Source: Acidobacteriota bacterium (GTDB taxonomy: Bacteria > Acidobacteriota > Thermoanaerobaculia > Gp7-AA8). From it: a stretch of 64,000 bases of DNA. Position 1 is the stretch's first letter; each line of letters starts with the position of its first letter. Positions 28,173-35,919 of this stretch are shown here, one piece after another. Below the pieces are notes generated by a model, which was not told where the DNA came from, searched no databases, and saw only the letters and a list, made by a program, of their open reading frames with translations. The position numbers and the translations under genes are program-made. Location of the stretch: NCBI GenBank assembly GCA_019247495.1, contig JAFAOU010000018.1, forward strand, positions 1,518-65,517, given 5' to 3'.

Positions 28173-29249
28173 CTAGAGGCCGTAGAAACGCTTTGGGTTG
28201 TGGCAGAGGAGCTTTTCGACCGTTGCGTCGGAAATCGTCCCTTTGAGTGCCATCGCATCCTTCATGACGTTCGGGTCGTGATCCATGTGTGGGAAATCGG
28301 AGCCGATGAGGATGTTGTCGGCGCCTATGAAATCCATGAGCGGGGCCAGGTAAGCCTCCGTCGGTTCGATGGCAACGAAGCACTGCCGGCGGAAGTATTC
28401 GGACGGTTTCATGGTCACGTTGCCGCGCACCTCCCACTCCAGGTCGTGGTACTCGCGGTCGAGACGCCAGAGCCAATACGGAACCCAGCCTCCGCCCGCT
28501 TCCAGAAACGCGAAGCGAAGACGCGGATGCCGTTCCAGGACGCCGCCTTCGATCAGCGCCAGCAGGGCCATCATCTGTTCCATCGGATGCGAGCAGGCGT
28601 GCATGGCGAAACGCGAGTCGAAGCGGTCGGCACCTGCCGACGGCACGCGGGCGTGAGTGCCTTCATGGATTCCAACCGCGATGTTCAACTCCTCGCACGC
28701 GCTCCAGAACGGTTCATACGCGGGATCGCTGAGGAGGCGTCCTTTGATCGGATTGGGACGCATCACGACAGCGCGCCATCCGAAACCGGCGATGCGGCGC
28801 AACTCCGGCACCATCTCGTCAGGCGCATGACGATTGATCGCGCCGACGCCGCGCAGCACCTGTGGATCGTAGGCCACGAAGTCGCGTAGCCAGTTGTTGT
28901 ACGCACGGATGAACGCGCCTGCCAGCGCGGCATCCATCGAGTCGACCGCGAAGAGGAATCCGCCGACCGAGGGATAGAGGAACGCAAAGTCGGCGCCGAG
29001 AATCCTGAGCGCTTTGACCGTCGAAGGAGCATCCCAGGCGGTGATGCCGTACGCCGCGTGGCTGCGATCGAGGATGGACGGACCGGCAGAAGCCACTTTG
29101 TCGGAGATCTTGTTGTAGATCGCCTCGCCATCGAGACGCAGCGCCGTGGTGATGGAGTGGCTGCCGAACTCCGGCTCCAGGTAGTCGTTCCAGATGCTGG
29201 CGGGCTCCCACACGTGGCAGTCGGCGTCGATGATTTCGTGGGCGGTCAT
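28173..29249 (-). CDS. amidohydrolase family (Amidohydro_2/LigW-ACMSD-like) metalloenzyme
   Basis: IDADCH, GIHEG, FLEAGGGW, GSDFPH motifs; ATGA overlap with the SagB gene. Confidence 0.88.
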   Translation of the reverse strand: MTAHEIIDADCHVWEPASIWNDYLEPEFGSHSITTALRLDGEAIYNKISDKVASAGPSILDRSHAAYGITAWDAPSTVKALRILGADFAFLYPSVGGFLFAVDSMDAALAGAFIRAYNNWLRDFVAYDPQVLRGVGAINRHAPDEMVPELRRIAGFGWRAVVMRPNPIKGRLLSDPAYEPFWSACEELNIAVGIHEGTHARVPSAGADRFDSRFAMHACSHPMEQMMALLALIEGGVLERHPRLRFAFLEAGGGWVPYWLWRLDREYHDLEWEVRGNVTMKPSEYFRRQCFVAIEPTEAYLAPLMDFIGADNILIGSDFPHMDHDPNVMKDAMALKGTISDATVEKLLCHNPKRFYGL

Positions 29250-30550
29250 TGCCGGTCTCCTTCCGCTCTGCTTCCGATGATGAATTCGCCCACGGATGTC
29301 TCCTCGTAGTAGTCGACGCCGGCCGCTGCGGCAAAGACGTCTGAGTCGCCGCCGCCGATGGCGCAGGCGCCGAGGCCCATCGCCTCTGCCACGAGATAGA
29401 GCGTCTGCATCAGGGCGCCCACGTCCTTGAGGATGAGCGCGTAACCCATCGACTCGTACTTCCAGAAGACTCTCGCGAATCGAGCGGTGATCGTCAGCAG
29501 CACCTGCGGCGGAGCGTATGGTTCTTGCGTCGCCTGCTGAAGAAGCGCCTTCGACGAATCTCCGATGCGCGCGAGGCGGTGCTCGAGCGGATCGTAGTGA
29601 TAGAGCCCGGAGCGGAGGTCAGCGCAGGTATGGACCGTGAGGTAGATCTCCAGCTCGTACACCGCGCCGCCGCCGGGATACGGACGGTTGCTGAGTTGCT
29701 GGCCGATACCGACGTCGTAGACGTCGCGGATCCGCGCGGCGCGGAAGAGAAGCTCGCCCAGCTCGCGGCAAGTGATCGGCGGCTCGCCGAACTGCCGTGA
29801 GGAGTGGCGGTTCTCGATGACGGAGGTGAATTCGCCCTGCAGCTCAGGTCTGTGGAGAGGTACGACGTCGTCGGATGCGATTTGCTTCGCCACCGGGGGC
29901 GGCTGCGTGCGAAGGCGAAATGGAAACGAGGCTCCGTACTGGCCGTGATGACGCCCCTTCCGCGACCGCGCGTGGAAGAGAAGATCGTAAAAGTTCCAGT
30001 AGCCGAGCGAACCGTCGTTCTCTTGCTCGCCGGCGAAGAGACCGCAACTCCAGAAGAGCGTGCAGAGCGCGGAAACCTCATCCGGCGGAAGGATTGCGGT
30101 CAGCTCGTCTGCGCGCCGCGGCGTAGCCAGCGTCGCCAGGAACGGCAGCAGGCGCGGATCGGTGAGGGTGACGTGAGCTGCGGATAGCGGCGTTTCGATT
30201 GTCATCGTGTCGCCATCGCGGCGAATCAGCGCAAATCGAGAGAGGAGCAACGGCTGGCCAGGGTCCACGGTTCGTAAATCCAGCCGCGTTCTGCATGTGG
30301 CCGTGGCCAGCGTTCCGTCATCGCTGGCGATTCGATACGACAGCGCGTCGCGGCGGGCCAGCGCGTCCAGCGCGTAGTACAGCAGCGGAAGACCACCCCG
30401 CCCGTCCGCGGCGATGACGCTCGTTTCGAGCTCGTCCTCCGTTTCGCCGTTTCGTGCGATTCGTGCGAGCGCATCGCGTACGCCGGTTGGAAGGGAGGCC
30501 GAGGGCGCTTCGCCGTCACGCAGAAGCAATTCGATGCGCGCGGCGGCCAT
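29246..30550 (-). CDS. SagB/ThcOx-family FMN-dependent azoline dehydrogenase
   Basis: FYDLLFHARSRKGRH, RHSSRQF, RPYPGGGAVYELE, KYESMGYALILKDVG. Confidence 0.9.
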   Translation of the reverse strand: MAAARIELLLRDGEAPSASLPTGVRDALARIARNGETEDELETSVIAADGRGGLPLLYYALDALARRDALSYRIASDDGTLATATCRTRLDLRTVDPGQPLLLSRFALIRRDGDTMTIETPLSAAHVTLTDPRLLPFLATLATPRRADELTAILPPDEVSALCTLFWSCGLFAGEQENDGSLGYWNFYDLLFHARSRKGRHHGQYGASFPFRLRTQPPPVAKQIASDDVVPLHRPELQGEFTSVIENRHSSRQFGEPPITCRELGELLFRAARIRDVYDVGIGQQLSNRPYPGGGAVYELEIYLTVHTCADLRSGLYHYDPLEHRLARIGDSSKALLQQATQEPYAPPQVLLTITARFARVFWKYESMGYALILKDVGALMQTLYLVAEAMGLGACAIGGGDSDVFAAAAGVDYYEETSVGEFIIGSRAEGDRQ

Positions 30551-30559
30551 GGCAGCGCC

Positions 30560-32848
30560 TCAGAAGAAAACCGGTATCGGATTCAGCTCGGCTTCCGGCA
30601 GCGGTGCGGGCAACCAGCCCAGCGATACCGGAACGTCATACAACCGGCCTGGTCCGAGACGTTGCCAGAAGTGACGCATCCCCGGCACGACCACGCGCAC
30701 CACGGAAAGGCCGATGTCAGGCCGAGTCTGATCGAGGACGAGCGTCTCCAGGCCGTGTTCTGCGGCGATGCGCACACACGCCTCGACGTCGTCTTTCAGA
30801 TCATCGTGGTCGAACCGTCGATAGTCCTGAGCGCCGACGGTTGCACCGGATGGAGCAAGGTATGAATGTTCCGCGAGCGTGGCCGTTCGGAGCCAGTCGA
30901 GAACCTCATCGCTCATCGTGTCGAATGGCGAATCGGCAGTGTGGCGATTGATGACGACCGGCAGAAACTGATTTGTTTCTGTCACCGCGCGAAGGATTCC
31001 GAGCTTCGCATCAAGATGGCAGCCGAATCCGACGATGAGATCCTCGGCCGGCGTATCGATGCGGCGGCTGACGGCGGCGAAGGCGGGGATGCCGAAGTCG
31101 CCGGTGATATCGAGAACCGTGAGATCGCGATTCAGCGAACGGTAGTAGCGCCGCAGCGTGGCGAAGTAAGGCTCATCGAACGTATCGAGGTCGACGGCTG
31201 GCCGGGTCAGGCGGTTGTACCACCAGATGGCGACGCAGTCGCGTTCCACCAGTTCGAGGAATCCCTGCAGGACGGCCTCTTCAAGGGAGTTGCCGGCCGC
31301 GCAGCCGTTCGAGTCGGCCCAACCGAAGGGTTCGCGCGGCTGGTATTCGAAATAGCAGTAGGCCGTCGGGAGGTAGCGGACGCGATCTTCCGTCAACGAC
31401 CAGAGAGGGGACCATTCGATTTCGGCGGAGGGATCGAATGGCGCCGGAACGCGGTGAGAGCGCGGGGCGGGAGTCTCGTTATGCCGTTGGTATTGCGCGG
31501 CGCTGTAAAGCATGCAGTCGTTCGGATGAATGGCGGCGTCGCCGATCGATCCGAAGCTGGCTCGGAAGCGCGGCTCGCTTCCGTCGAAGAGGCCGCTGTA
31601 GCGCTCGATCGCTTCCGCCAGCGCGCCGGCTTTGGCCTGCTGCGCGGTCTTACCCTTTCCGCCGCTCCCGCTGCGGAAGCGTCCGCGCAGCGATTCGAGA
31701 GAGTCATCGATACGCGACGCGTTGCGGCCCGCGAAGCAGAGCGGCGCAGCGGTGGAATCGACCGGCGACTCCGAGGTCAAGTGAGTGACGACTCCGGTCA
31801 GCGCACTTACGTGACGGCTGTAGCGCGCCAGCGTCACTTCCGGCGATTCCGAACGAAAGCCGCCATCGCTGGTGAACTTCTTGGTGCGGCTCGTGAGGCG
31901 GATCGGCTCCGCCGTTCGAGACGGCGCTGCCCGGCCGGTTCCGCATTCAGGGCATTGCGGCCGCCGCACCACCGGATGGCGCTCGCTGGTCAAGCACGCC
32001 AGGTCGATGGTCAGCAGACTGTTCTCCAACTCCGGACTCGGCGCGCCGGCCAGCCACTTAGCTACCTCGGTCGCGATGAGAGAAGCCGCTGCGGACTCGG
32101 TCAGGGGAATGCTGAAGTTGCTCGCCACACGCGGATACGAGTCGTTTTTGCGCCGCTGCACGAACCGCTCGGCCTCGCGCTGCGTGCGCAGACGGTGAGC
32201 GAGGCACGTCCAGCACGCAGTCACGCCAGGCCGGATCAGTGGCCCGATCCAGAGGAGGGAGCCTACGGGACGCGCGAGGAGCCACGGTGATCCGTCCTGC
32301 AGGCGTGCGGCGTTGAATGCGGCTAATTCCGGACGGAGATAGTCATCGGTCAGAACGACTGAAACGCTCCCTTCGGCGGCGACACCGATGCCGGCGGAGG
32401 TCAGCGACCGCAGGAGCGGTTCGGTTGCGATGTCCCCAATCGCCACGATTGCCACGCGAGCTTCGGAGAGAGCACGAACCGCGGTGCCGGGGGAGACACC
32501 GAGCGCATCCCAGAATTGCGCTGCCGGCGGTGGAAGAGAGTCGTCGCTCTCGCGGATGACGCCGCATTTTTCCAGCCGTTCGAGAGCGTAGTAAACCTCG
32601 ATCGCGCTTACGGCCGGCCTCGCCGCGTCAACGATTTCGTCGACGGCCCTTCCTTCGCCGAGAAGAGACGTCACGGCGGTATACGCGGAGCCGCTGAAAA
32701 GCTGGGCTCCCCGCTCGCTGAGCAGGAGCGTGTGCTCGTCATCGACGATGGTGACGTCGTAGCAAGTCCTGAACTCCGGTCGGATAAGCAGGTAGATCTC
32801 CTTTTCGGTACGAGCACGCCCCCGGCGGCCGTGAAACGCTGAGGCCAC
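30560..32848 (-). CDS. fused leader-binding/E1-like + YcaO cyclodehydratase (TOMM/LAP)
   Basis: IGPLIRPGVTACWTC E1-like domain; EAIERYS, DSNGCAAG, ELVERD YcaO ATP motifs; Pro-rich C-terminus PIPVFF. Confidence 0.92.
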   Translation of the reverse strand: MASAFHGRRGRARTEKEIYLLIRPEFRTCYDVTIVDDEHTLLLSERGAQLFSGSAYTAVTSLLGEGRAVDEIVDAARPAVSAIEVYYALERLEKCGVIRESDDSLPPPAAQFWDALGVSPGTAVRALSEARVAIVAIGDIATEPLLRSLTSAGIGVAAEGSVSVVLTDDYLRPELAAFNAARLQDGSPWLLARPVGSLLWIGPLIRPGVTACWTCLAHRLRTQREAERFVQRRKNDSYPRVASNFSIPLTESAAASLIATEVAKWLAGAPSPELENSLLTIDLACLTSERHPVVRRPQCPECGTGRAAPSRTAEPIRLTSRTKKFTSDGGFRSESPEVTLARYSRHVSALTGVVTHLTSESPVDSTAAPLCFAGRNASRIDDSLESLRGRFRSGSGGKGKTAQQAKAGALAEAIERYSGLFDGSEPRFRASFGSIGDAAIHPNDCMLYSAAQYQRHNETPAPRSHRVPAPFDPSAEIEWSPLWSLTEDRVRYLPTAYCYFEYQPREPFGWADSNGCAAGNSLEEAVLQGFLELVERDCVAIWWYNRLTRPAVDLDTFDEPYFATLRRYYRSLNRDLTVLDITGDFGIPAFAAVSRRIDTPAEDLIVGFGCHLDAKLGILRAVTETNQFLPVVINRHTADSPFDTMSDEVLDWLRTATLAEHSYLAPSGATVGAQDYRRFDHDDLKDDVEACVRIAAEHGLETLVLDQTRPDIGLSVVRVVVPGMRHFWQRLGPGRLYDVPVSLGWLPAPLPEAELNPIPVFF

Positions 32849-32868
32849 CGGAGGCTAGTCGTTTGAGA

Positions 32869-33156
32869 TCAGCAGCAGAAGACCATGTCTTTGTGGCAGT
32901 TGGTGCTGCTGCAGAAGGGGGTGCCCTTGTAGTTGCCGAGATGTTCCTCGTTCAGATCGGCGGGCTTCGCCGGGAGGCCGAGAGTGAGCGTGCTCTGCGT
33001 CGAATCGACGGCGATCTTTACCGTGATGGCGGGATTGATCTTCCACCCGGCTTCTTCCAACACCTTCGCCGGCTCCTTGAGGAGACGGTCGCGATAGGCA
33101 TCATCCGACCACGCCCTTGCAATGACTTTTTCATAATTATGAGTTTCTTCCGACAT
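32869..33156 (-). CDS. NHLP (nitrile-hydratase-like leader) RiPP precursor; putative core ~TPFCSSTNCHKDMVFCC
   Basis: KVIARAWSDDAYRDRLLKEPAKVL and LPAKPADLNEEHL leader motifs; Cys/Ser/Thr-rich tail; AAGGA RBS; 20 nt upstream of YcaO. Confidence 0.88.
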   Translation of the reverse strand: MSEETHNYEKVIARAWSDDAYRDRLLKEPAKVLEEAGWKINPAITVKIAVDSTQSTLTLGLPAKPADLNEEHLGNYKGTPFCSSTNCHKDMVFCC

Positions 33157-33246
33157 GACGAATCCTTTCTTTTGAACTGCGTTTATGTCGAGGACCGGGT
33201 CTGACGAGGGACCCCAATGAAAATATCCTCGACACGTTCCTTGGTC

Positions 33247-35919
33247 TCACGGGGATGCGCTGGGAGAGTTACGACGAGGCAGGTTGTAAATGAGCCGCAA
33301 GTGAATCGTCCTGCCGGCCTGGAGCACCCGAGGCAATGTGGTGAAGTTGCCCGGGTCGGAATAGTTCTTATTGAGGAGGTTAAAGGCGCTGAGCTGCAGG
33401 GTTGTTTTCGGCAGAATGCGGTAGCTCAGGGTGGCGTCCGTCGTCGAATACGGATCCGTCTGCGTAAAAGGGTCGGTTGCGTCCGTCGTTCCTGGCCCGG
33501 TCCGCCGGCGTCCCACGAAATGAACGCGCAGCCCGCCGTACAGGCGTAGTGAAGCATCGCTGTCAACTCCTACAGTGGCCTGATTGGCGGCGATGTCGGC
33601 CACTGGCAGCTGTCGAATCACTTTGCCGCTGCCGTCCACGAGTGGATTGCCCTCGAAATCGGCCGGGTTCAGTTGCAGCGGCTTCGTATGTGTGTAATTC
33701 GCCCACAGGCGGAATCGGGACAGCCTGTACGCCGCGGTTGCCTGTAATCCGGTAACGAGGAGACGATCGCGATTCTGATACTGCGCGCACCCCGAGAAAC
33801 AGTCGGGTACGAGGGTGCCGTCGGGCAGGCGCGGCGCGCCGATGGCCACGACGTTCGAATAGCTGGCCCGGTACGCCGACGCTTCCACCGACAGCCTTTC
33901 GTCGCGCTCCCAGCTCGCGCTCAGCTCCACGTTGCGCACGCGCTCCGGTGTAAGGCCGTTGCTGCGATATTCGATGACGTATCGCAATACGCTGAATTTT
34001 TGAGCTTCTGTTGGGTCCTTGAATGCTTCCGAATAAATGCTCTTGAGTACGAGCCGTCCATCGCCCGGTGACCAGATCACTCCGACTCGGGGCGTGAACA
34101 GCGTTCCATAGCCGTACGCGCCGGGTTTGTTGTCGATACTGTTGTGGCTGACCCGGCCTGCAAGAACGAATCGCAACGCTTTATACGGTTTCCATGATCC
34201 CTGGCCATAGACGGCCGCGTCGGTATGCTCATTCTCCTCAGGTTTCTCGAGAGCAGTTCCCGTCAGAAATCCAGGACCGCTGGGCGAAGAATCCAATTGC
34301 GTCTGCACTGAGGATTTTGCGAACTCAACGCCGGCCACGCCGCTGATCTTTTCCGACGGTTCATAGGTGAGGCTGATTTCGCTGCGCAATATGCTGTTGA
34401 GTAAACCGAATGTATCTCTCTCGATCCACGGAGAGGCGGGCGCGCAACCGACCGGCTGCGGGTCGTTCGGAGCGACGCAGGGAGGCACAAGACTCCATAG
34501 GCTGAGAAAGCCGTCGTAATAGCTGTGTGTGTAGTCGAAGCGGGAGCTGGCCCGGTCGAGTGACGTCTGTTGATAGCGCGCGAAGATGTTGAGTTTCATG
34601 CGGTCGAGAGGGACCGAGTACTTCATGTATAGAGCGGTCTCTTTCGGCGTCCATGTGGTATTTCCCGTGATCCCGACCGGTATGCCGTAGGCGGAGATGA
34701 TGCCCTCCTGCGACGACCACGATTGAAGGCCGACGGTCAGGTTTTGAACCCGCAGCCGGGCATTCACGGACCAGTTGTTGGCGCGGTCATCGAAGCCGGC
34801 TCCGTGATCCTCGATCAGCTTCCGATCGAGTCCGCGCACGAGTGTTTCACCCGCATCCGTCAGATCGATTCCCGCGGCGCTGCAACGAATGTAGGGCGAC
34901 GGCGTCGCGCAGAGTGCGGCTCTTTCTTCGGAAGTGCCGCCAAGGTGCAGCAGGCTTTTGTAATCGATGGTCCTGTAGGTGAAGTCGTAAAAAGGGAGCG
35001 CGGAAAGATCGCGCTCTTTCGACTGCTGAAAATTCGCGGCCACGCTCCATGCAATCGTCGCGTCGCGGTTGGCGCCGGCGGCGGTGATGTCCGCGGACCG
35101 ATTCGAGTAGCCGCCACCGGTCACCTCGCCGATCAGTCCGAACCGCCCCTTCTCGCCGATGATCGACTCGGGATCGCGGGTGATGATGCTGATTACGCCC
35201 GTGTACGCATTCGCGCCATACATCGTCGAGGCCGGGCCGTAGATCACCTCGACGCGCTCGATATCCGTCAGCGAATACTGCCGCGAGAGGTAGACCACGC
35301 TGCCGCTCAGATCGTTCTGCTCGACACCGTCGACGAGCAGGAGCAGGCGGTCGTTTTCGTTGTTGAGGTAGCCGCGTTGATAGATGGAGGAGTAGTTCGC
35401 TCCATTCAGCCGCGCGATGTCGAAACCGGGCAGGTCGTGAAGAAGTTGTTCGAGGTCGAGGTAGCCGCGCCGCTCGATTTCGTCGCCAGTGATGACCATG
35501 ACCGTGGCGGGCGCTTCGCGCAGACTCTCGCTCGTCTTCGACACGGAGGTGACCTGCGTCTTCTGCTCCTCTTTGCGCACCTTCGCGACGAGCGAGAGAT
35601 AGCGCGCCGACGATCCGGCCTCGGGTTCGTAGTTCGCCTGCAGTCGGAGGAGCGTGGAGACTTCTTTTCGCGCCTTCTCCGGCTCATCGTTGTTGAGATA
35701 GGCGCGCGCAAGCAGTGAGTGGACGTGGGTTGCTACCGCACGCGAGGTCGGTGTGCCGAGGCATGGGGCGAGTTTCGCAGGGATGTCTTCGAAGAGACCA
35801 AGCTCGTAGGTTTTTTCCGCGTCGTGCAGAGCGTCCTCGCACGCGGTCTGCGCGAAGACCTTGGACGACGAGGTCAGCAGGAAGACGGAAGCGAACAGCG
35901 TGATTGCAGTTTTTTTCAT
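33247..35919 (-). CDS. TonB-dependent receptor with N-terminal TPR-like extension
   Basis: Signal peptide; plug motifs (EAPATVMVIT, IERVEVIYGPASTMYGANAYTGVISII); NLLNKNY...GRT barrel end; ATGA overlap with the upstream gene. Confidence 0.88.
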   Translation of the reverse strand: MKKTAITLFASVFLLTSSSKVFAQTACEDALHDAEKTYELGLFEDIPAKLAPCLGTPTSRAVATHVHSLLARAYLNNDEPEKARKEVSTLLRLQANYEPEAGSSARYLSLVAKVRKEEQKTQVTSVSKTSESLREAPATVMVITGDEIERRGYLDLEQLLHDLPGFDIARLNGANYSSIYQRGYLNNENDRLLLLVDGVEQNDLSGSVVYLSRQYSLTDIERVEVIYGPASTMYGANAYTGVISIITRDPESIIGEKGRFGLIGEVTGGGYSNRSADITAAGANRDATIAWSVAANFQQSKERDLSALPFYDFTYRTIDYKSLLHLGGTSEERAALCATPSPYIRCSAAGIDLTDAGETLVRGLDRKLIEDHGAGFDDRANNWSVNARLRVQNLTVGLQSWSSQEGIISAYGIPVGITGNTTWTPKETALYMKYSVPLDRMKLNIFARYQQTSLDRASSRFDYTHSYYDGFLSLWSLVPPCVAPNDPQPVGCAPASPWIERDTFGLLNSILRSEISLTYEPSEKISGVAGVEFAKSSVQTQLDSSPSGPGFLTGTALEKPEENEHTDAAVYGQGSWKPYKALRFVLAGRVSHNSIDNKPGAYGYGTLFTPRVGVIWSPGDGRLVLKSIYSEAFKDPTEAQKFSVLRYVIEYRSNGLTPERVRNVELSASWERDERLSVEASAYRASYSNVVAIGAPRLPDGTLVPDCFSGCAQYQNRDRLLVTGLQATAAYRLSRFRLWANYTHTKPLQLNPADFEGNPLVDGSGKVIRQLPVADIAANQATVGVDSDASLRLYGGLRVHFVGRRRTGPGTTDATDPFTQTDPYSTTDATLSYRILPKTTLQLSAFNLLNKNYSDPGNFTTLPRVLQAGRTIHLRLIYNLPRRNSPSASP

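What the first reader, a model, noticed from the sequence alone, without database searches (positions are those of the whole stretch)
28173..33156. Compact NHLP-type azole RiPP cluster with an unusual core and no protease or exporter
Seen: precursor, fused YcaO cyclodehydratase, SagB/ThcOx oxidase and amidohydrolase, with gaps of 20 nt, 9 nt and a 4-nt overlap. The putative core TPFCSSTNCHKDMVFCC has 4 Cys, 2 Ser and 2 Thr and ends in Cys-Cys. Known: YcaO plus SagB converts Cys/Ser/Thr to thiazoles and oxazoles, and NHLP clusters usually carry a C39-peptidase ABC exporter. None is present here. Inference: a new polyazole peptide, possibly with a terminal bis-thiazole. The core does not match any RiPP I recognise.
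Basis: partly seen in the sequence, partly recalled or inferred. Interest (0 to 1): 0.85.

Follow-up and report, generated by a model that had tools for sequence, protein, structure and literature searches.

The report
Azole peptide cluster with terminal-thiazole oxygenase
A soil Acidobacteria gene cluster makes a small cysteine-rich, ring-modified peptide, and its so-called amidohydrolase is most likely a two-iron oxygenase that removes the peptide's terminal carboxyl group to leave a bare thiazole, a step not yet shown for any ribosomal peptide.

Summary
The four minus-strand genes are real and lie exactly as described: a 95-aa NHLP-type precursor, a fused RRE/E1-like YcaO, a SagB/ThcOx dehydrogenase and a PF04909 protein. 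The reading is right except for the fourth gene.

- **Fourth gene.** It is not a hydrolase. It carries the D-x-H and D-x-P-H-x-D signature of amidohydrolase-related dinuclear oxygenases. It is about 58% identical to LynB7, which oxidatively decarboxylates thiazoline-4-carboxylates to thiazoles.
- **Linkage.** Relatives of this oxygenase sit next to a fused YcaO in about 62 of 80 genome loci. 40 of 77 linked precursors end in Cys and 65 of 77 end in Cys, Ser or Thr. None has a double-glycine motif.
- **Predicted product.** A polyazole peptide ending in a decarboxylated bithiazole.
- **Missing protease and exporter.** No C39 exporter is in the window. Relatives carry a sedolisin peptidase where this genome has a VapBC-like pair.
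- **Context.** A TonB-dependent receptor always lies directly upstream. The whole block is far more diverged than its 93-98% identical flanks.

A 2026 paper noted the oxygenase/"thiazoline synthase" neighbourhood but named no product. I rate this a new variant of a known kind.

The parts
32869..33156 (-). Precursor peptide, 95 aa. The NHLP-type leader is about residues 1-73 (nt 32938-33156). The hypervariable core is about residues 74-95, GNYKGTPFCSSTNCHKDMVFCC (nt 32872-32937).
   Evidence: PF02979 41.9 bits; TIGR03793 50.5 bits against a cutoff of 50.9. The alignment of 11 relatives is conserved up to L73. After that only the last Cys positions are kept.
30560..32848 (-). Fused cyclodehydratase: N-terminal winged-helix (RRE-like) domain, E1/ThiF-like leader-binding domain and YcaO domain.
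   Evidence: PF21084 (residues 28-98), TIGR03882 (188-354, 166 bits), TIGR03604 (397-759, 269.6 bits, above cutoff), PF02624 E 3e-102.
29246..30550 (-). SagB-type FMN dehydrogenase with a ThcOx-like N-terminal domain. It converts azolines to azoles.
   Evidence: PF22767 (102-201), PF00881, TIGR03605 (172.9 bits against 78.4).
28173..29249 (-). BarH/LynB7-like amidohydrolase-related dinuclear oxygenase (ARO). Predicted to act as a C-terminal thiazoline-4-carboxylate oxidative decarboxylase. Its start overlaps the SagB stop by 4 nt.
   Evidence: - Motifs D10-C-H12 and D318-F-P-H321-M-D323, plus H195 and E250, are invariant in the 15 relatives aligned.
- The ARO definition is taken from PMC13154177.
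- The best PDB sequence hit is PtmU3, E 6e-33.
- The top Foldseek hits are all AROs.
- It is about 58% identical to LynB7.
33247..35919 (-). TonB-dependent outer-membrane receptor (890 aa), 90 nt upstream of the precursor on the same strand. Its ATG overlaps the stop of the upstream nSTAND1 gene (ATGA).
   Evidence: - It is directly upstream of the precursor in all 11 distinct Thermoanaerobaculia-type loci, including the inverted L012.
- The overlap was read.
- No NCBIfam subfamily cutoff is reached.
35916..41136 (-). SLATT (40699-41136), TIR/DUF4062 (39017-40501) and nSTAND1-WD40 (35916-39020) genes. They are translationally coupled to the receptor. Whether they belong to the RiPP system is uncertain.
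   Evidence: Pfam calls on L001, ATGA overlaps, and presence in every related locus with enough flank.
27527..28137 (-). VapC-like PIN toxin (27742-28137) and Phd-like antitoxin (27527-27745). They occupy the position where five relatives carry a convergent sedolisin (S53) peptidase.
   Evidence: compared. There is no sedolisin anywhere in the window.

Best explanation
This is a ribosomal azole-peptide (LAP/TOMM, NHLP-leader) pathway with an unusual last step.

1. The 95-aa precursor is bound through its nitrile-hydratase-like leader by the RRE/E1-like part of the fused YcaO enzyme.
2. The YcaO domain uses ATP to cyclodehydrate Cys (and probably Ser/Thr) in the roughly 22-residue core to azolines. 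This includes the C-terminal Cys, which becomes a thiazoline-4-carboxylate.
3. The SagB flavoprotein oxidises the internal azolines to azoles.
4. The fourth protein, annotated as an amidohydrolase, is a diiron oxygenase of the BarH/LynB7/DolJ type. It uses O2 to oxidatively decarboxylate the terminal thiazoline-4-carboxylate.

The mature peptide would therefore end in a carboxylate-free thiazole, here a Phe-thiazole-thiazole (2,4'-bithiazole) tail. The terminal Cys should lose 18 Da on ring closure and a further 46 Da on decarboxylation.

Shown here: gene content, family membership, the oxygenase's metal-ligand motifs, its closeness to LynB7, its genomic coupling to YcaO, and the enrichment of Cys, Ser or Thr at the precursor C-terminus.

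Inferred: the peptide as substrate, the order of the steps, and what the product does. Leader removal is probably done by a sedolisin-type peptidase that is encoded next door in relatives but not here. No exporter is encoded nearby. The conserved upstream TonB-dependent receptor suggests that the product, or a complex of it, is taken back up.
For: 1. **Core enzymes.** They pass their curated cutoffs.
2. **Oxygenase motifs.** The fourth protein has both ARO-defining motifs, N-terminal D-x-H and C-terminal D-x-P-H-x-D. According to PMC13154177 these are absent from the characterised PF04909 hydrolases and decarboxylases. D10, H12, H195, E250, D318, H321 and D323 are invariant across the 15 sequences aligned. 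They correspond to the LynB7 ligands D11, H13, H197, E252, D320, H323 and D325 listed in PMC10127204.
3. **Similarity.** It is about 58% identical to LynB7 over 352 aligned residues. The Foldseek alignment to PtmU3 shows 24% identity. The top PDB sequence and fold hits are PtmU3, SfbO, TruffO, DitZ and AibH, all oxygenases.
4. **Biochemistry of relatives.** LynB7 converts 2-substituted thiazoline-4-carboxylates to thiazoles with Fe2+ and O2 and tolerates different C2 substituents. E0U9F9, from the clade whose neighbourhoods carry a 'thiazoline synthase' in about 69% of cases, does the same.
5. **Linkage to YcaO.** In about 62 of 80 genome loci the oxygenase lies next to a fused YcaO, mostly directly downstream of it.
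6. **Precursor ends.** Of 77 NHLP-like precursors beside an oxygenase, 40 end in Cys and 65 end in Cys, Ser or Thr. Of 35 in related loci without the oxygenase, 7 and 15 do (Fisher p = 0.002 and 2e-5). Background small ORFs end in Cys 4% of the time.
7. **Within the window's own clade.** 13 of 14 precursors at oxygenase-bearing loci end in Cys and one ends in Cys-Ser. The L013 precursor (no oxygenase) and the two L096 precursors (contig ends before that position) end in Tyr, Ala and Asp.
8. **Persistence without SagB.** The oxygenase is kept where SagB is absent (L012, L094). It is the most conserved enzyme of the block at 75-84% identity, against 55-76% for YcaO.
Against: - No peptide substrate has ever been tested with a BarH-like oxygenase. 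The published assays used small thiazoline acids.
- The LynB7 sequence came from a machine-read PDF with nine apparent frameshifts, so 58% is approximate.
- LynB7 does not accept a thiazole-4-carboxylate. If SagB oxidised the terminal ring first, the oxygenase would be blocked, so some ordering or selectivity has to be assumed.
- About 16% of oxygenase-linked precursors end in Phe, Val, Leu or another residue. 7 of 35 precursors in oxygenase-free loci also end in Cys, so the correlation is not absolute.
- The counted loci are not phylogenetically independent.
- There is no expression evidence. Only DNA runs hold the sequence.
Confidence: 0.68

Rival explanations
1. The fourth protein is a true metal-dependent hydrolase. 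It would remove the leader or a C-terminal residue, as the thiazoline-specific amidohydrolase PurAH does in bottromycin biosynthesis. That would explain why no protease is encoded.
For: - It hits Pfam Amidohydro_2.
- No protease is encoded in the window.
- Some oxygenase-linked precursors carry one extra residue after the last Cys.
Against: - It has the D-x-H and D-x-P-H-x-D motifs that PMC13154177 reports as absent from characterised PF04909 hydrolases and decarboxylases.
- Every PDB sequence hit with E <= 0.01 is an oxygenase, decarboxylase, hydratase or C-C hydrolase of the PF04909 fold, and the best ones are oxygenases. No PurAH-like chain appears.
- PMC10127204 gives only 14% identity between LynB7 and PurAH.
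- Relatives carry a separate sedolisin or S8 peptidase.
Confidence: 0.06
2. The fourth protein is an ARO oxygenase but hydroxylates a C-H bond elsewhere in the core, as PtmU3, SfbO and AibH do on their substrates, rather than decarboxylating the terminus.
For: Most characterised AROs are hydroxylases. LynB7's reaction is itself proposed to start with C5 hydroxylation or H-abstraction.
Against: - It is about 58% identical to LynB7, against 24% to PtmU3 in the fold alignment. It sits inside the BarH-like radiation in the tree.
- The cores are hypervariable except for the terminal Cys positions, so the terminus is the only conserved candidate site.
- The terminal residues are enriched for Cys, Ser and Thr.
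Confidence: 0.1
3. A reading of function that is compatible with the same biosynthesis. The peptide is a secreted scavenger such as a metallophore, re-imported through the adjacent TonB-dependent receptor. The sedolisin in relatives would process or recycle it. This resembles the receptor- and peptidase-linked lasso-peptide clusters of Proteobacteria and the methanobactin operons.
For: - The receptor lies directly upstream of the precursor in all 11 distinct loci of this clade. In L012 it stays with the RiPP genes although the unit is inverted relative to both flanks.
- Receptor identity to the window tracks YcaO identity across loci: 79/76, 73/73, 71/66, 62/62, 56/58 and 51/56 %.
- The cores are rich in Cys and His.
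Against: - The genomes are close relatives (CheR 93-98% identical), so shared gene order is weak evidence.
- The receptor matches no siderophore subfamily above its cutoff.
- It is translationally coupled to the upstream nSTAND1 gene, not to the precursor.
- Oxygenase-linked clusters in other phyla have no receptor.
- Fully oxidised thiazoles are poor metal ligands (general chemistry).
Confidence: 0.2
4. The product is an ordinary narrow-spectrum antibacterial azole peptide. The receptor and the STAND/TIR genes are unrelated neighbours.
For: Many characterised linear azole peptides are antibacterial (general knowledge). Hypervariable cores on conserved leaders are typical of bacteriocin-like RiPPs.
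Against: - No immunity gene or exporter is nearby.
- The receptor is persistently linked.
- A different STAND-type signalling protein follows the same RiPP module in 61 of about 73 cyanobacterial and Thiotrichaceae loci.
Confidence: 0.3

Closest known systems
LynB7 / BarH / DolJ, the nonheme diiron oxidative decarboxylases of the lyngbyapeptin B, barbamide and dolastatin 10 NRPS-PKS pathways (PMC10127204)
   Same: About 58% sequence identity, the same seven metal-ligand positions including the Asp at the last motif position, and a predicted substrate that is a C-terminal thiazoline-4-carboxylate.
   Different: Those enzymes act on small NRPS-released acids in cyanobacteria. Here the partner is a ribosomal precursor with a YcaO enzyme, the host is an Acidobacteriota (Thermoanaerobaculia) bacterium, and a SagB dehydrogenase is also present.
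E0U9F9 clade of BarH-like AROs (Liu, Nguyen, Britt and Rittle, JACS 2026, PMC13154177)
   Same: It belongs to the same large clade whose neighbourhoods hold a 'thiazoline synthase' (about 69%). E0U9F9 makes 2-phenylthiazole from the thiazoline acid with a diiron cofactor.
   Different: - That paper names no natural product, precursor or RiPP class, and reports BarH-like proteins only from cyanobacteria and myxococcota.
- This locus adds SagB, a poly-Cys hypervariable core and a TonB-dependent receptor.
- Identity to E0U9F9 itself was not measured here.
NHLP/Nif11 TOMM clusters (Haft, Basu and Mitchell 2010, PMC2887384; Cox et al. 2015, PMC4603692) and azole-containing proteusins such as nostatin A (PMC11583998)
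   Same: A nitrile-hydratase-like leader without the CxxCSC site, a fused cyclodehydratase, an optional dehydrogenase and a hypervariable core.
   Different: This locus has no double-glycine leader end and no C39 ABC exporter. It has an extra oxygenase. The text searches of the two papers checked (PMC4603692 and PMC11583998) found no mention of an amidohydrolase.
Bottromycin C-terminal thiazole formation (P450 BotCYP/BtmJ) and PurAH
   Same: A ribosomal peptide whose C-terminal Cys-derived thiazoline is oxidatively decarboxylated to a thiazole.
   Different: Bottromycin uses a cytochrome P450 for that step and needs PurAH to remove a follower peptide first. Here the Cys is already terminal and the enzyme is a diiron TIM-barrel oxygenase.
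Receptor-linked RiPP clusters: methanobactin (MbnT) and lasso-peptide clusters with a TonB-dependent receptor and an isopeptidase (recalled from memory, not tested here)
   Same: A TonB-dependent receptor, and in relatives a peptidase, encoded beside a RiPP precursor.
   Different: The chemistry is different (no MbnBC, no lasso cyclase). No metal binding or uptake is shown here.

Membership tests
Azol(in)e RiPP (TOMM / linear azole peptide) | SagD-type YcaO cyclodehydratase | tested here: met
   TIGR03604 scores 269.6 bits against a cutoff of 219.25. PF02624 E 3e-102.
Azol(in)e RiPP (TOMM / linear azole peptide) | E1-like / RRE leader-binding partner | tested here: met
   TIGR03882 scores 166 bits against 36.9. 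The PF21084 winged helix covers residues 28-98, fused to YcaO.
Azol(in)e RiPP (TOMM / linear azole peptide) | SagB-type FMN dehydrogenase | tested here: met
   TIGR03605 scores 172.9 bits against 78.4, with PF22767 and PF00881.
Azol(in)e RiPP (TOMM / linear azole peptide) | Azole rings in the mature product | not testable with these tools
   Needs mass spectrometry of the modified peptide.
NHLP leader family (TIGR03793) | Nitrile-hydratase-alpha-like leader domain | tested here: inconclusive
   - PF02979 scores 41.9 bits, above its cutoff of 27.2.
- TIGR03793 scores 50.5 bits, just under its cutoff of 50.9.
- jackhmmer links the precursor to 71 NHLP-like precursors.
NHLP leader family (TIGR03793) | Double-glycine leader end with a C39-peptidase ABC exporter | tested here: not met
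   - The precursor has no GG motif, and 0 of 77 oxygenase-linked precursors have one, against 10 of 35 without the oxygenase.
- No exporter was found in the window.
- The whole genome could not be searched.
Amidohydrolase-related dinuclear oxygenases (ARO) | PF04909 TIM-barrel fold | tested here: met
   - Pfam E 1.4e-32.
- The AF2 model has pTM 0.79.
- Foldseek TM-score is 0.70 to PtmU3.
Amidohydrolase-related dinuclear oxygenases (ARO) | N-terminal D-x-H motif on the first beta-strand | tested here: met
   D10-C11-H12 is invariant in 15 relatives.
Amidohydrolase-related dinuclear oxygenases (ARO) | C-terminal D-x-P-H-x-D/E motif | tested here: met
   In D318-F-P-H321-M-D323 the positions D318, P320, H321 and D323 are invariant.
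Amidohydrolase-related dinuclear oxygenases (ARO) | Dinuclear Fe/Mn cofactor and O2-dependent activity | not testable with these tools
   Needs metal analysis and an enzyme assay.
BarH/LynB7/DolJ-type thiazoline-4-carboxylate oxidative decarboxylases | Close sequence relationship to a characterised member | tested here: met
   It is about 58% identical to LynB7 over 352 residues, using a machine-read sequence, so the figure is approximate. LynB7 nests among the YcaO-linked homologues in the tree.
BarH/LynB7/DolJ-type thiazoline-4-carboxylate oxidative decarboxylases | A pathway partner that makes a C-terminal thiazoline-4-carboxylate | tested here: met
   The precursor ends in Cys-Cys and the YcaO gene is in the same operon.
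BarH/LynB7/DolJ-type thiazoline-4-carboxylate oxidative decarboxylases | Conversion of the thiazoline acid to a thiazole with loss of CO2 | not testable with these tools
   Needs an assay with 2-phenylthiazoline-4-carboxylate or the cyclised peptide.
PurAH-like thiazoline-specific amidohydrolase (bottromycin) | Sequence similarity to PurAH | tested here: not met
   No such chain appears among the 42 PDB sequences matched at E <= 0.01. That a PurAH structure is in the PDB is recalled from memory, not checked. PMC10127204 gives 14% identity between LynB7 and PurAH.

The most novel reading that the evidence does not exclude
The RiPP genes, the TonB-dependent receptor and the translationally coupled SLATT, TIR and nSTAND1-WD40 genes form one system.

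In this reading a strain-specific, hypervariable azole peptide with a constant decarboxylated thiazole end is released, taken up through its co-diversifying receptor, and sensed by the STAND protein. The STAND protein then switches on the TIR and SLATT effectors. That would be a peptide-keyed recognition or self/non-self circuit.

The same RiPP module (NHLP precursor, YcaO, oxygenase) is followed by a different STAND-type signalling protein (Ser/Thr kinase, AAA_16, GAF, His kinase) in 61 of about 73 cyanobacterial and Thiotrichaceae loci. This family of modified peptides may therefore generally be ligands of, or be controlled by, STAND sensors.
Probability: 0.12. Interest if true: 0.9.

Novelty: new variant of a known kind. 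Interest (0 to 1): 0.62.

Why it matters
A carboxylate-free C-terminal thiazole is a key feature of bottromycin, dolastatin 10 and barbamide. In ribosomal peptides it is so far known to be made only by a P450. If this cluster works as predicted, a diiron TIM-barrel oxygenase does the same job on a gene-encoded peptide.

- The oxygenase family has at least 490 relatives among one-per-species genomes. Most of those examined sit next to a YcaO and an NHLP precursor, and no product has been described for any of them.
- It would correct a systematic misannotation ('amidohydrolase') in RiPP mining.
- It would give the recently defined ARO superfamily its first peptide substrate.
- It would extend BarH-like enzymes to Acidobacteriota.
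- It would offer a small enzyme set (precursor, YcaO, oxygenase) for engineering C-terminally capped peptides.
- The receptor and STAND linkage, if real, would point to a signalling or uptake role rather than a plain antibiotic.

Tried and rejected

**Searches that led nowhere**
- The word-based homologue search with the precursor found only itself.
- The promoter and terminator scan gave fewer sites than shuffled sequence and was uninformative.
- Three literature searches returned nothing relevant: NHLP + TonB-dependent + YcaO, BarH + YcaO, and NHLP + YcaO + amidohydrolase. One broad search was swamped by unrelated 'Barh' hits.
- The proteusin cyclodehydratase paper (PMC9746716) is not held.
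- Nostatin A was checked as a possible match. Its paper mentions no amidohydrolase or decarboxylation.
- Sequencing-run search found only DNA metagenomes (root, rock, rhizosphere) and no RNA, so there is no expression evidence.
- The metagenome scan with YcaO returned only three more loci of the window's clade. It mainly served as an oxygenase-free contrast set.

**Ideas considered and rejected**
- A classical non-oxidative PF04909 decarboxylase of the LigW/ACMSD type acting on a thiazole-4-carboxylate. The motifs are those of the oxygenases, and the oxygenases outrank the decarboxylases in both sequence and fold searches.
- A PurAH-like peptidase.
- The receptor belonging to a named siderophore, haem or B12 receptor subfamily. 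No NCBIfam cutoff was reached.


Full report
**1. Observation**

The four genes exist as described on the minus strand.
- Precursor: 32869-33156, 95 aa, preceded by an AAAGGA ribosome-binding site.
- Fused cyclodehydratase: 30560-32848, 762 aa.
- SagB/ThcOx oxidase: 29246-30550, 434 aa.
- PF04909 protein: 28173-29249, 358 aa.

The spacings are 20 nt, 9 nt and a 4-nt overlap. The curated models agree.
- The YcaO protein exceeds the cutoffs of TIGR03604 and TIGR03882 and has an N-terminal winged helix (PF21084).
- The oxidase exceeds the cutoff of TIGR03605.
- The precursor passes Pfam NHase_alpha but falls 0.4 bits short of the NCBIfam NHLP cutoff.

The same four proteins are called on nine independent metagenome contigs. 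The DNA is present in root, rock and rhizosphere metagenomes. The nearest named relatives are Thermoanaerobaculia (Acidobacteriota) MAGs.

**2. The 'amidohydrolase' is an oxygenase**

- Its best solved relative is PtmU3 (E 6e-33). Next come SfbO, TruffO, DitZ and AibH. These are the founding members of the amidohydrolase-related dinuclear oxygenases (AROs).
- The 2026 paper that defines this superfamily (PMC13154177) gives two diagnostic motifs: an N-terminal D-x-H and a C-terminal D-x-P-H-x-D/E. It states that they are absent from the characterised PF04909 hydrolases and decarboxylases.
- The window protein has D10-C-H12 and D318-F-P-H321-M-D323. These residues, with H195 and E250, are invariant in relatives. 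They correspond to the seven LynB7 ligands listed in PMC10127204.
- An AlphaFold model (pLDDT 72, pTM 0.79) finds PtmU3 and SfbO first, and most of the top dozen hits are other AROs, ahead of every classical decarboxylase.
- A frameshift-tolerant alignment against the lynB7 gene printed in that paper's supplement gives about 58% identity over 352 residues. The text is machine-read and contains errors, so the figure is approximate. The Foldseek alignment to PtmU3 shows 24% identity.
- LynB7 converts 2-substituted (4R)-thiazoline-4-carboxylic acids to thiazoles with Fe2+ and O2. It tolerates different C2 substituents, needs the free carboxylate, and does not accept the already aromatic thiazole acid.
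- PMC13154177 reports the same reaction for E0U9F9. It notes that E0U9F9's clade has a 'thiazoline synthase' neighbour in about 69% of cases, with no known product, and that BarH-like proteins were seen only in cyanobacteria and myxococcota.

**3. Comparative test of the prediction**

A scan of one genome per species with an oxygenase alignment found 490 relatives. The best 80 loci were kept.
- A fused YcaO lies next to the oxygenase in about 62 of the 80 loci, mostly directly upstream on the same strand. SagB is usually absent outside the window's clade.
- An iterative profile search recovered 71 NHLP-like precursors beside these oxygenases. 36 end in Cys and 59 end in Cys, Ser or Thr. Among 4,107 background small ORFs the rates are 4% and 18%.
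- A metagenome scan with a YcaO alignment supplied related clusters that lack the oxygenase.
- After pooling and removing duplicates, precursors at oxygenase-bearing loci end in Cys in 40 of 77 cases and in Cys, Ser or Thr in 65 of 77. At oxygenase-free loci the counts are 7 of 35 and 15 of 35 (Fisher p = 0.002 and 2e-5). These counts are not phylogenetically independent.
- Within the window's own clade of 11 distinct loci, 13 of 14 precursors at oxygenase-bearing loci end in Cys and one ends in Cys-Ser.
- The precursor of L013 (no oxygenase) ends in Tyr, and the two of L096 (contig ends before that position) end in Ala and Asp.
- In the 11 precursors aligned, the sequence is conserved up to L73 of the window protein. 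After that, 8 to 28 residues are unrelated in sequence and length except for the last Cys positions: FCC, CCC, PCS, PCC, FCAC, FCHC, WCC, CIC.
- The oxygenase is the most conserved enzyme of the block, at 75-84% identity against 55-76% for YcaO. It persists where SagB is missing (L012, L094). This fits an enzyme that sees only the constant terminus.
- In the tree, the window's oxygenase falls in a fully supported Thermoanaerobaculia clade next to Parabeggiatoa sequences. LynB7 nests inside the cyanobacterial radiation.

**4. Mechanism**

The fused enzyme binds the leader and uses ATP to cyclodehydrate Cys, and possibly Ser and Thr, in the core GNYKGTPFCSSTNCHKDMVFCC. SagB oxidises the internal rings. 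The diiron oxygenase removes CO2 and two hydrogens from the terminal thiazoline-4-carboxylate. The predicted end group is a Phe-thiazole-thiazole with no carboxylate. What is shown and what is inferred is set out under Best explanation.

**5. The missing protease and exporter**

- No C39 peptidase, ABC transporter, S8/S53 peptidase or second precursor lies in the 64 kb.
- This is normal for the subfamily. None of the 77 oxygenase-linked precursors has a double-glycine leader end, whereas 10 of 35 precursors without the oxygenase do.
- Five relatives carry a convergent sedolisin (Pro-kumamolisin activation domain plus a Peptidase_S8 Pfam match) right after the oxygenase.
- Parabeggiatoa clusters carry an S8 subtilase, a radical SAM enzyme and, in L016, a second YcaO.
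- In the window that slot holds a PIN/Phd toxin-antitoxin pair.

**6. Context**

- A TonB-dependent receptor lies directly upstream of the precursor in all 11 loci of the clade.
- In L012 the unit receptor-precursors-YcaO-oxygenase-sedolisin is inverted relative to both flanks. The receptor therefore travels with the RiPP genes.
- In the window, the receptor's start codon overlaps the stop of an nSTAND1-WD40 gene, which in turn overlaps a TIR/DUF4062 gene. A SLATT gene precedes them.
- The flanking cheR and cheB genes are 93-98% and 85-96% identical between loci. The block genes are only 51-84% identical and the precursors 35-48%. The block is a hypervariable island in a conserved neighbourhood.
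- Receptor divergence tracks YcaO divergence across loci.
- In 61 of about 73 cyanobacterial and Thiotrichaceae loci, a 1,500-1,850-aa Ser/Thr kinase-AAA_16-GAF-His kinase protein follows the oxygenase. It is often accompanied by RR-PAS-AAA_35 and CHAT-AAA_35 proteins.
- These links suggest uptake or signalling roles. They are inference only, because the Thermoanaerobaculia genomes are close relatives and no functional data exist.

**7. Novelty**

- NHLP/YcaO clusters have been known since 2010.
- The oxygenase family and its YcaO neighbourhood were noted in 2026, without a precursor, product or RiPP framing.
- No paper in the searched library links NHLP, YcaO and this enzyme.
- New here: assigning the gene in a RiPP operon to the BarH type, the precursor-terminus evidence, the occurrence in Acidobacteriota, the SagB-plus-oxygenase poly-Cys variant, and the receptor and STAND context.

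I rate it a new variant of a known kind.

Noticed in passing
window 27527-41136, compared with 25629-27523 and loci L007-L020: The 13.6-kb minus-strand block is 51-84% identical between related genomes. The adjacent cheR and cheB genes are 93-98% and 85-96% identical. The block is a hypervariable island, and in L012 its RiPP part is inverted.
   Followed up: partly
window 35916-35919 and 39017-39020: ATGA stop-start overlaps join TIR/DUF4062 to nSTAND1-WD40 and nSTAND1-WD40 to the TonB-dependent receptor. The receptor is therefore translationally coupled to a conflict-system-like operon as well as lying 90 nt from the precursor.
   Followed up: partly
L017-L093, e.g. L037:11101-16569 and L022:12121-16479: In 61 of about 73 cyanobacterial and Thiotrichaceae loci a giant Ser/Thr kinase-AAA_16-GAF-His kinase protein follows the oxygenase. 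It is often followed by an RR-PAS-AAA_35 protein and preceded by a CHAT-AAA_35 protein.
   Followed up: partly
L016:652-11980 and L035:1304-11080: Parabeggiatoa versions of the cluster add a radical SAM enzyme and an S8 subtilase. L016 also has a second fused YcaO.
   Followed up: no
L013:7562-8053 and L096:3172-4062: These two loci (L013 lacks the oxygenase; the L096 contig ends before that position) have precursors with repeated cores (GKT[KR]GGGAV.DETPG three times; SDSHGNCY repeats). None of them ends in Cys, Ser or Thr.
   Followed up: partly
loci L017-L093 (precursor tails): Cyanobacterial oxygenase-linked precursors fall into conserved tail families. One is ...PYIPL[ST]x[CS] and another is ...LYG[IL][ML]R[VQH][CST]. 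They have only one or two cyclisable residues, all at the very end.
   Followed up: no
window 27527-28137: A PIN (VapC-like) / Phd-like toxin-antitoxin pair sits exactly where five relatives encode a sedolisin peptidase.
   Followed up: partly
window 45968-58293: A respiratory gene run: split cytochrome b, a 1,119-aa multihaem cytochrome c, COX1, COX3, COX2, CtaA and a UbiA-family (CtaB-like) prenyltransferase.
   Followed up: no
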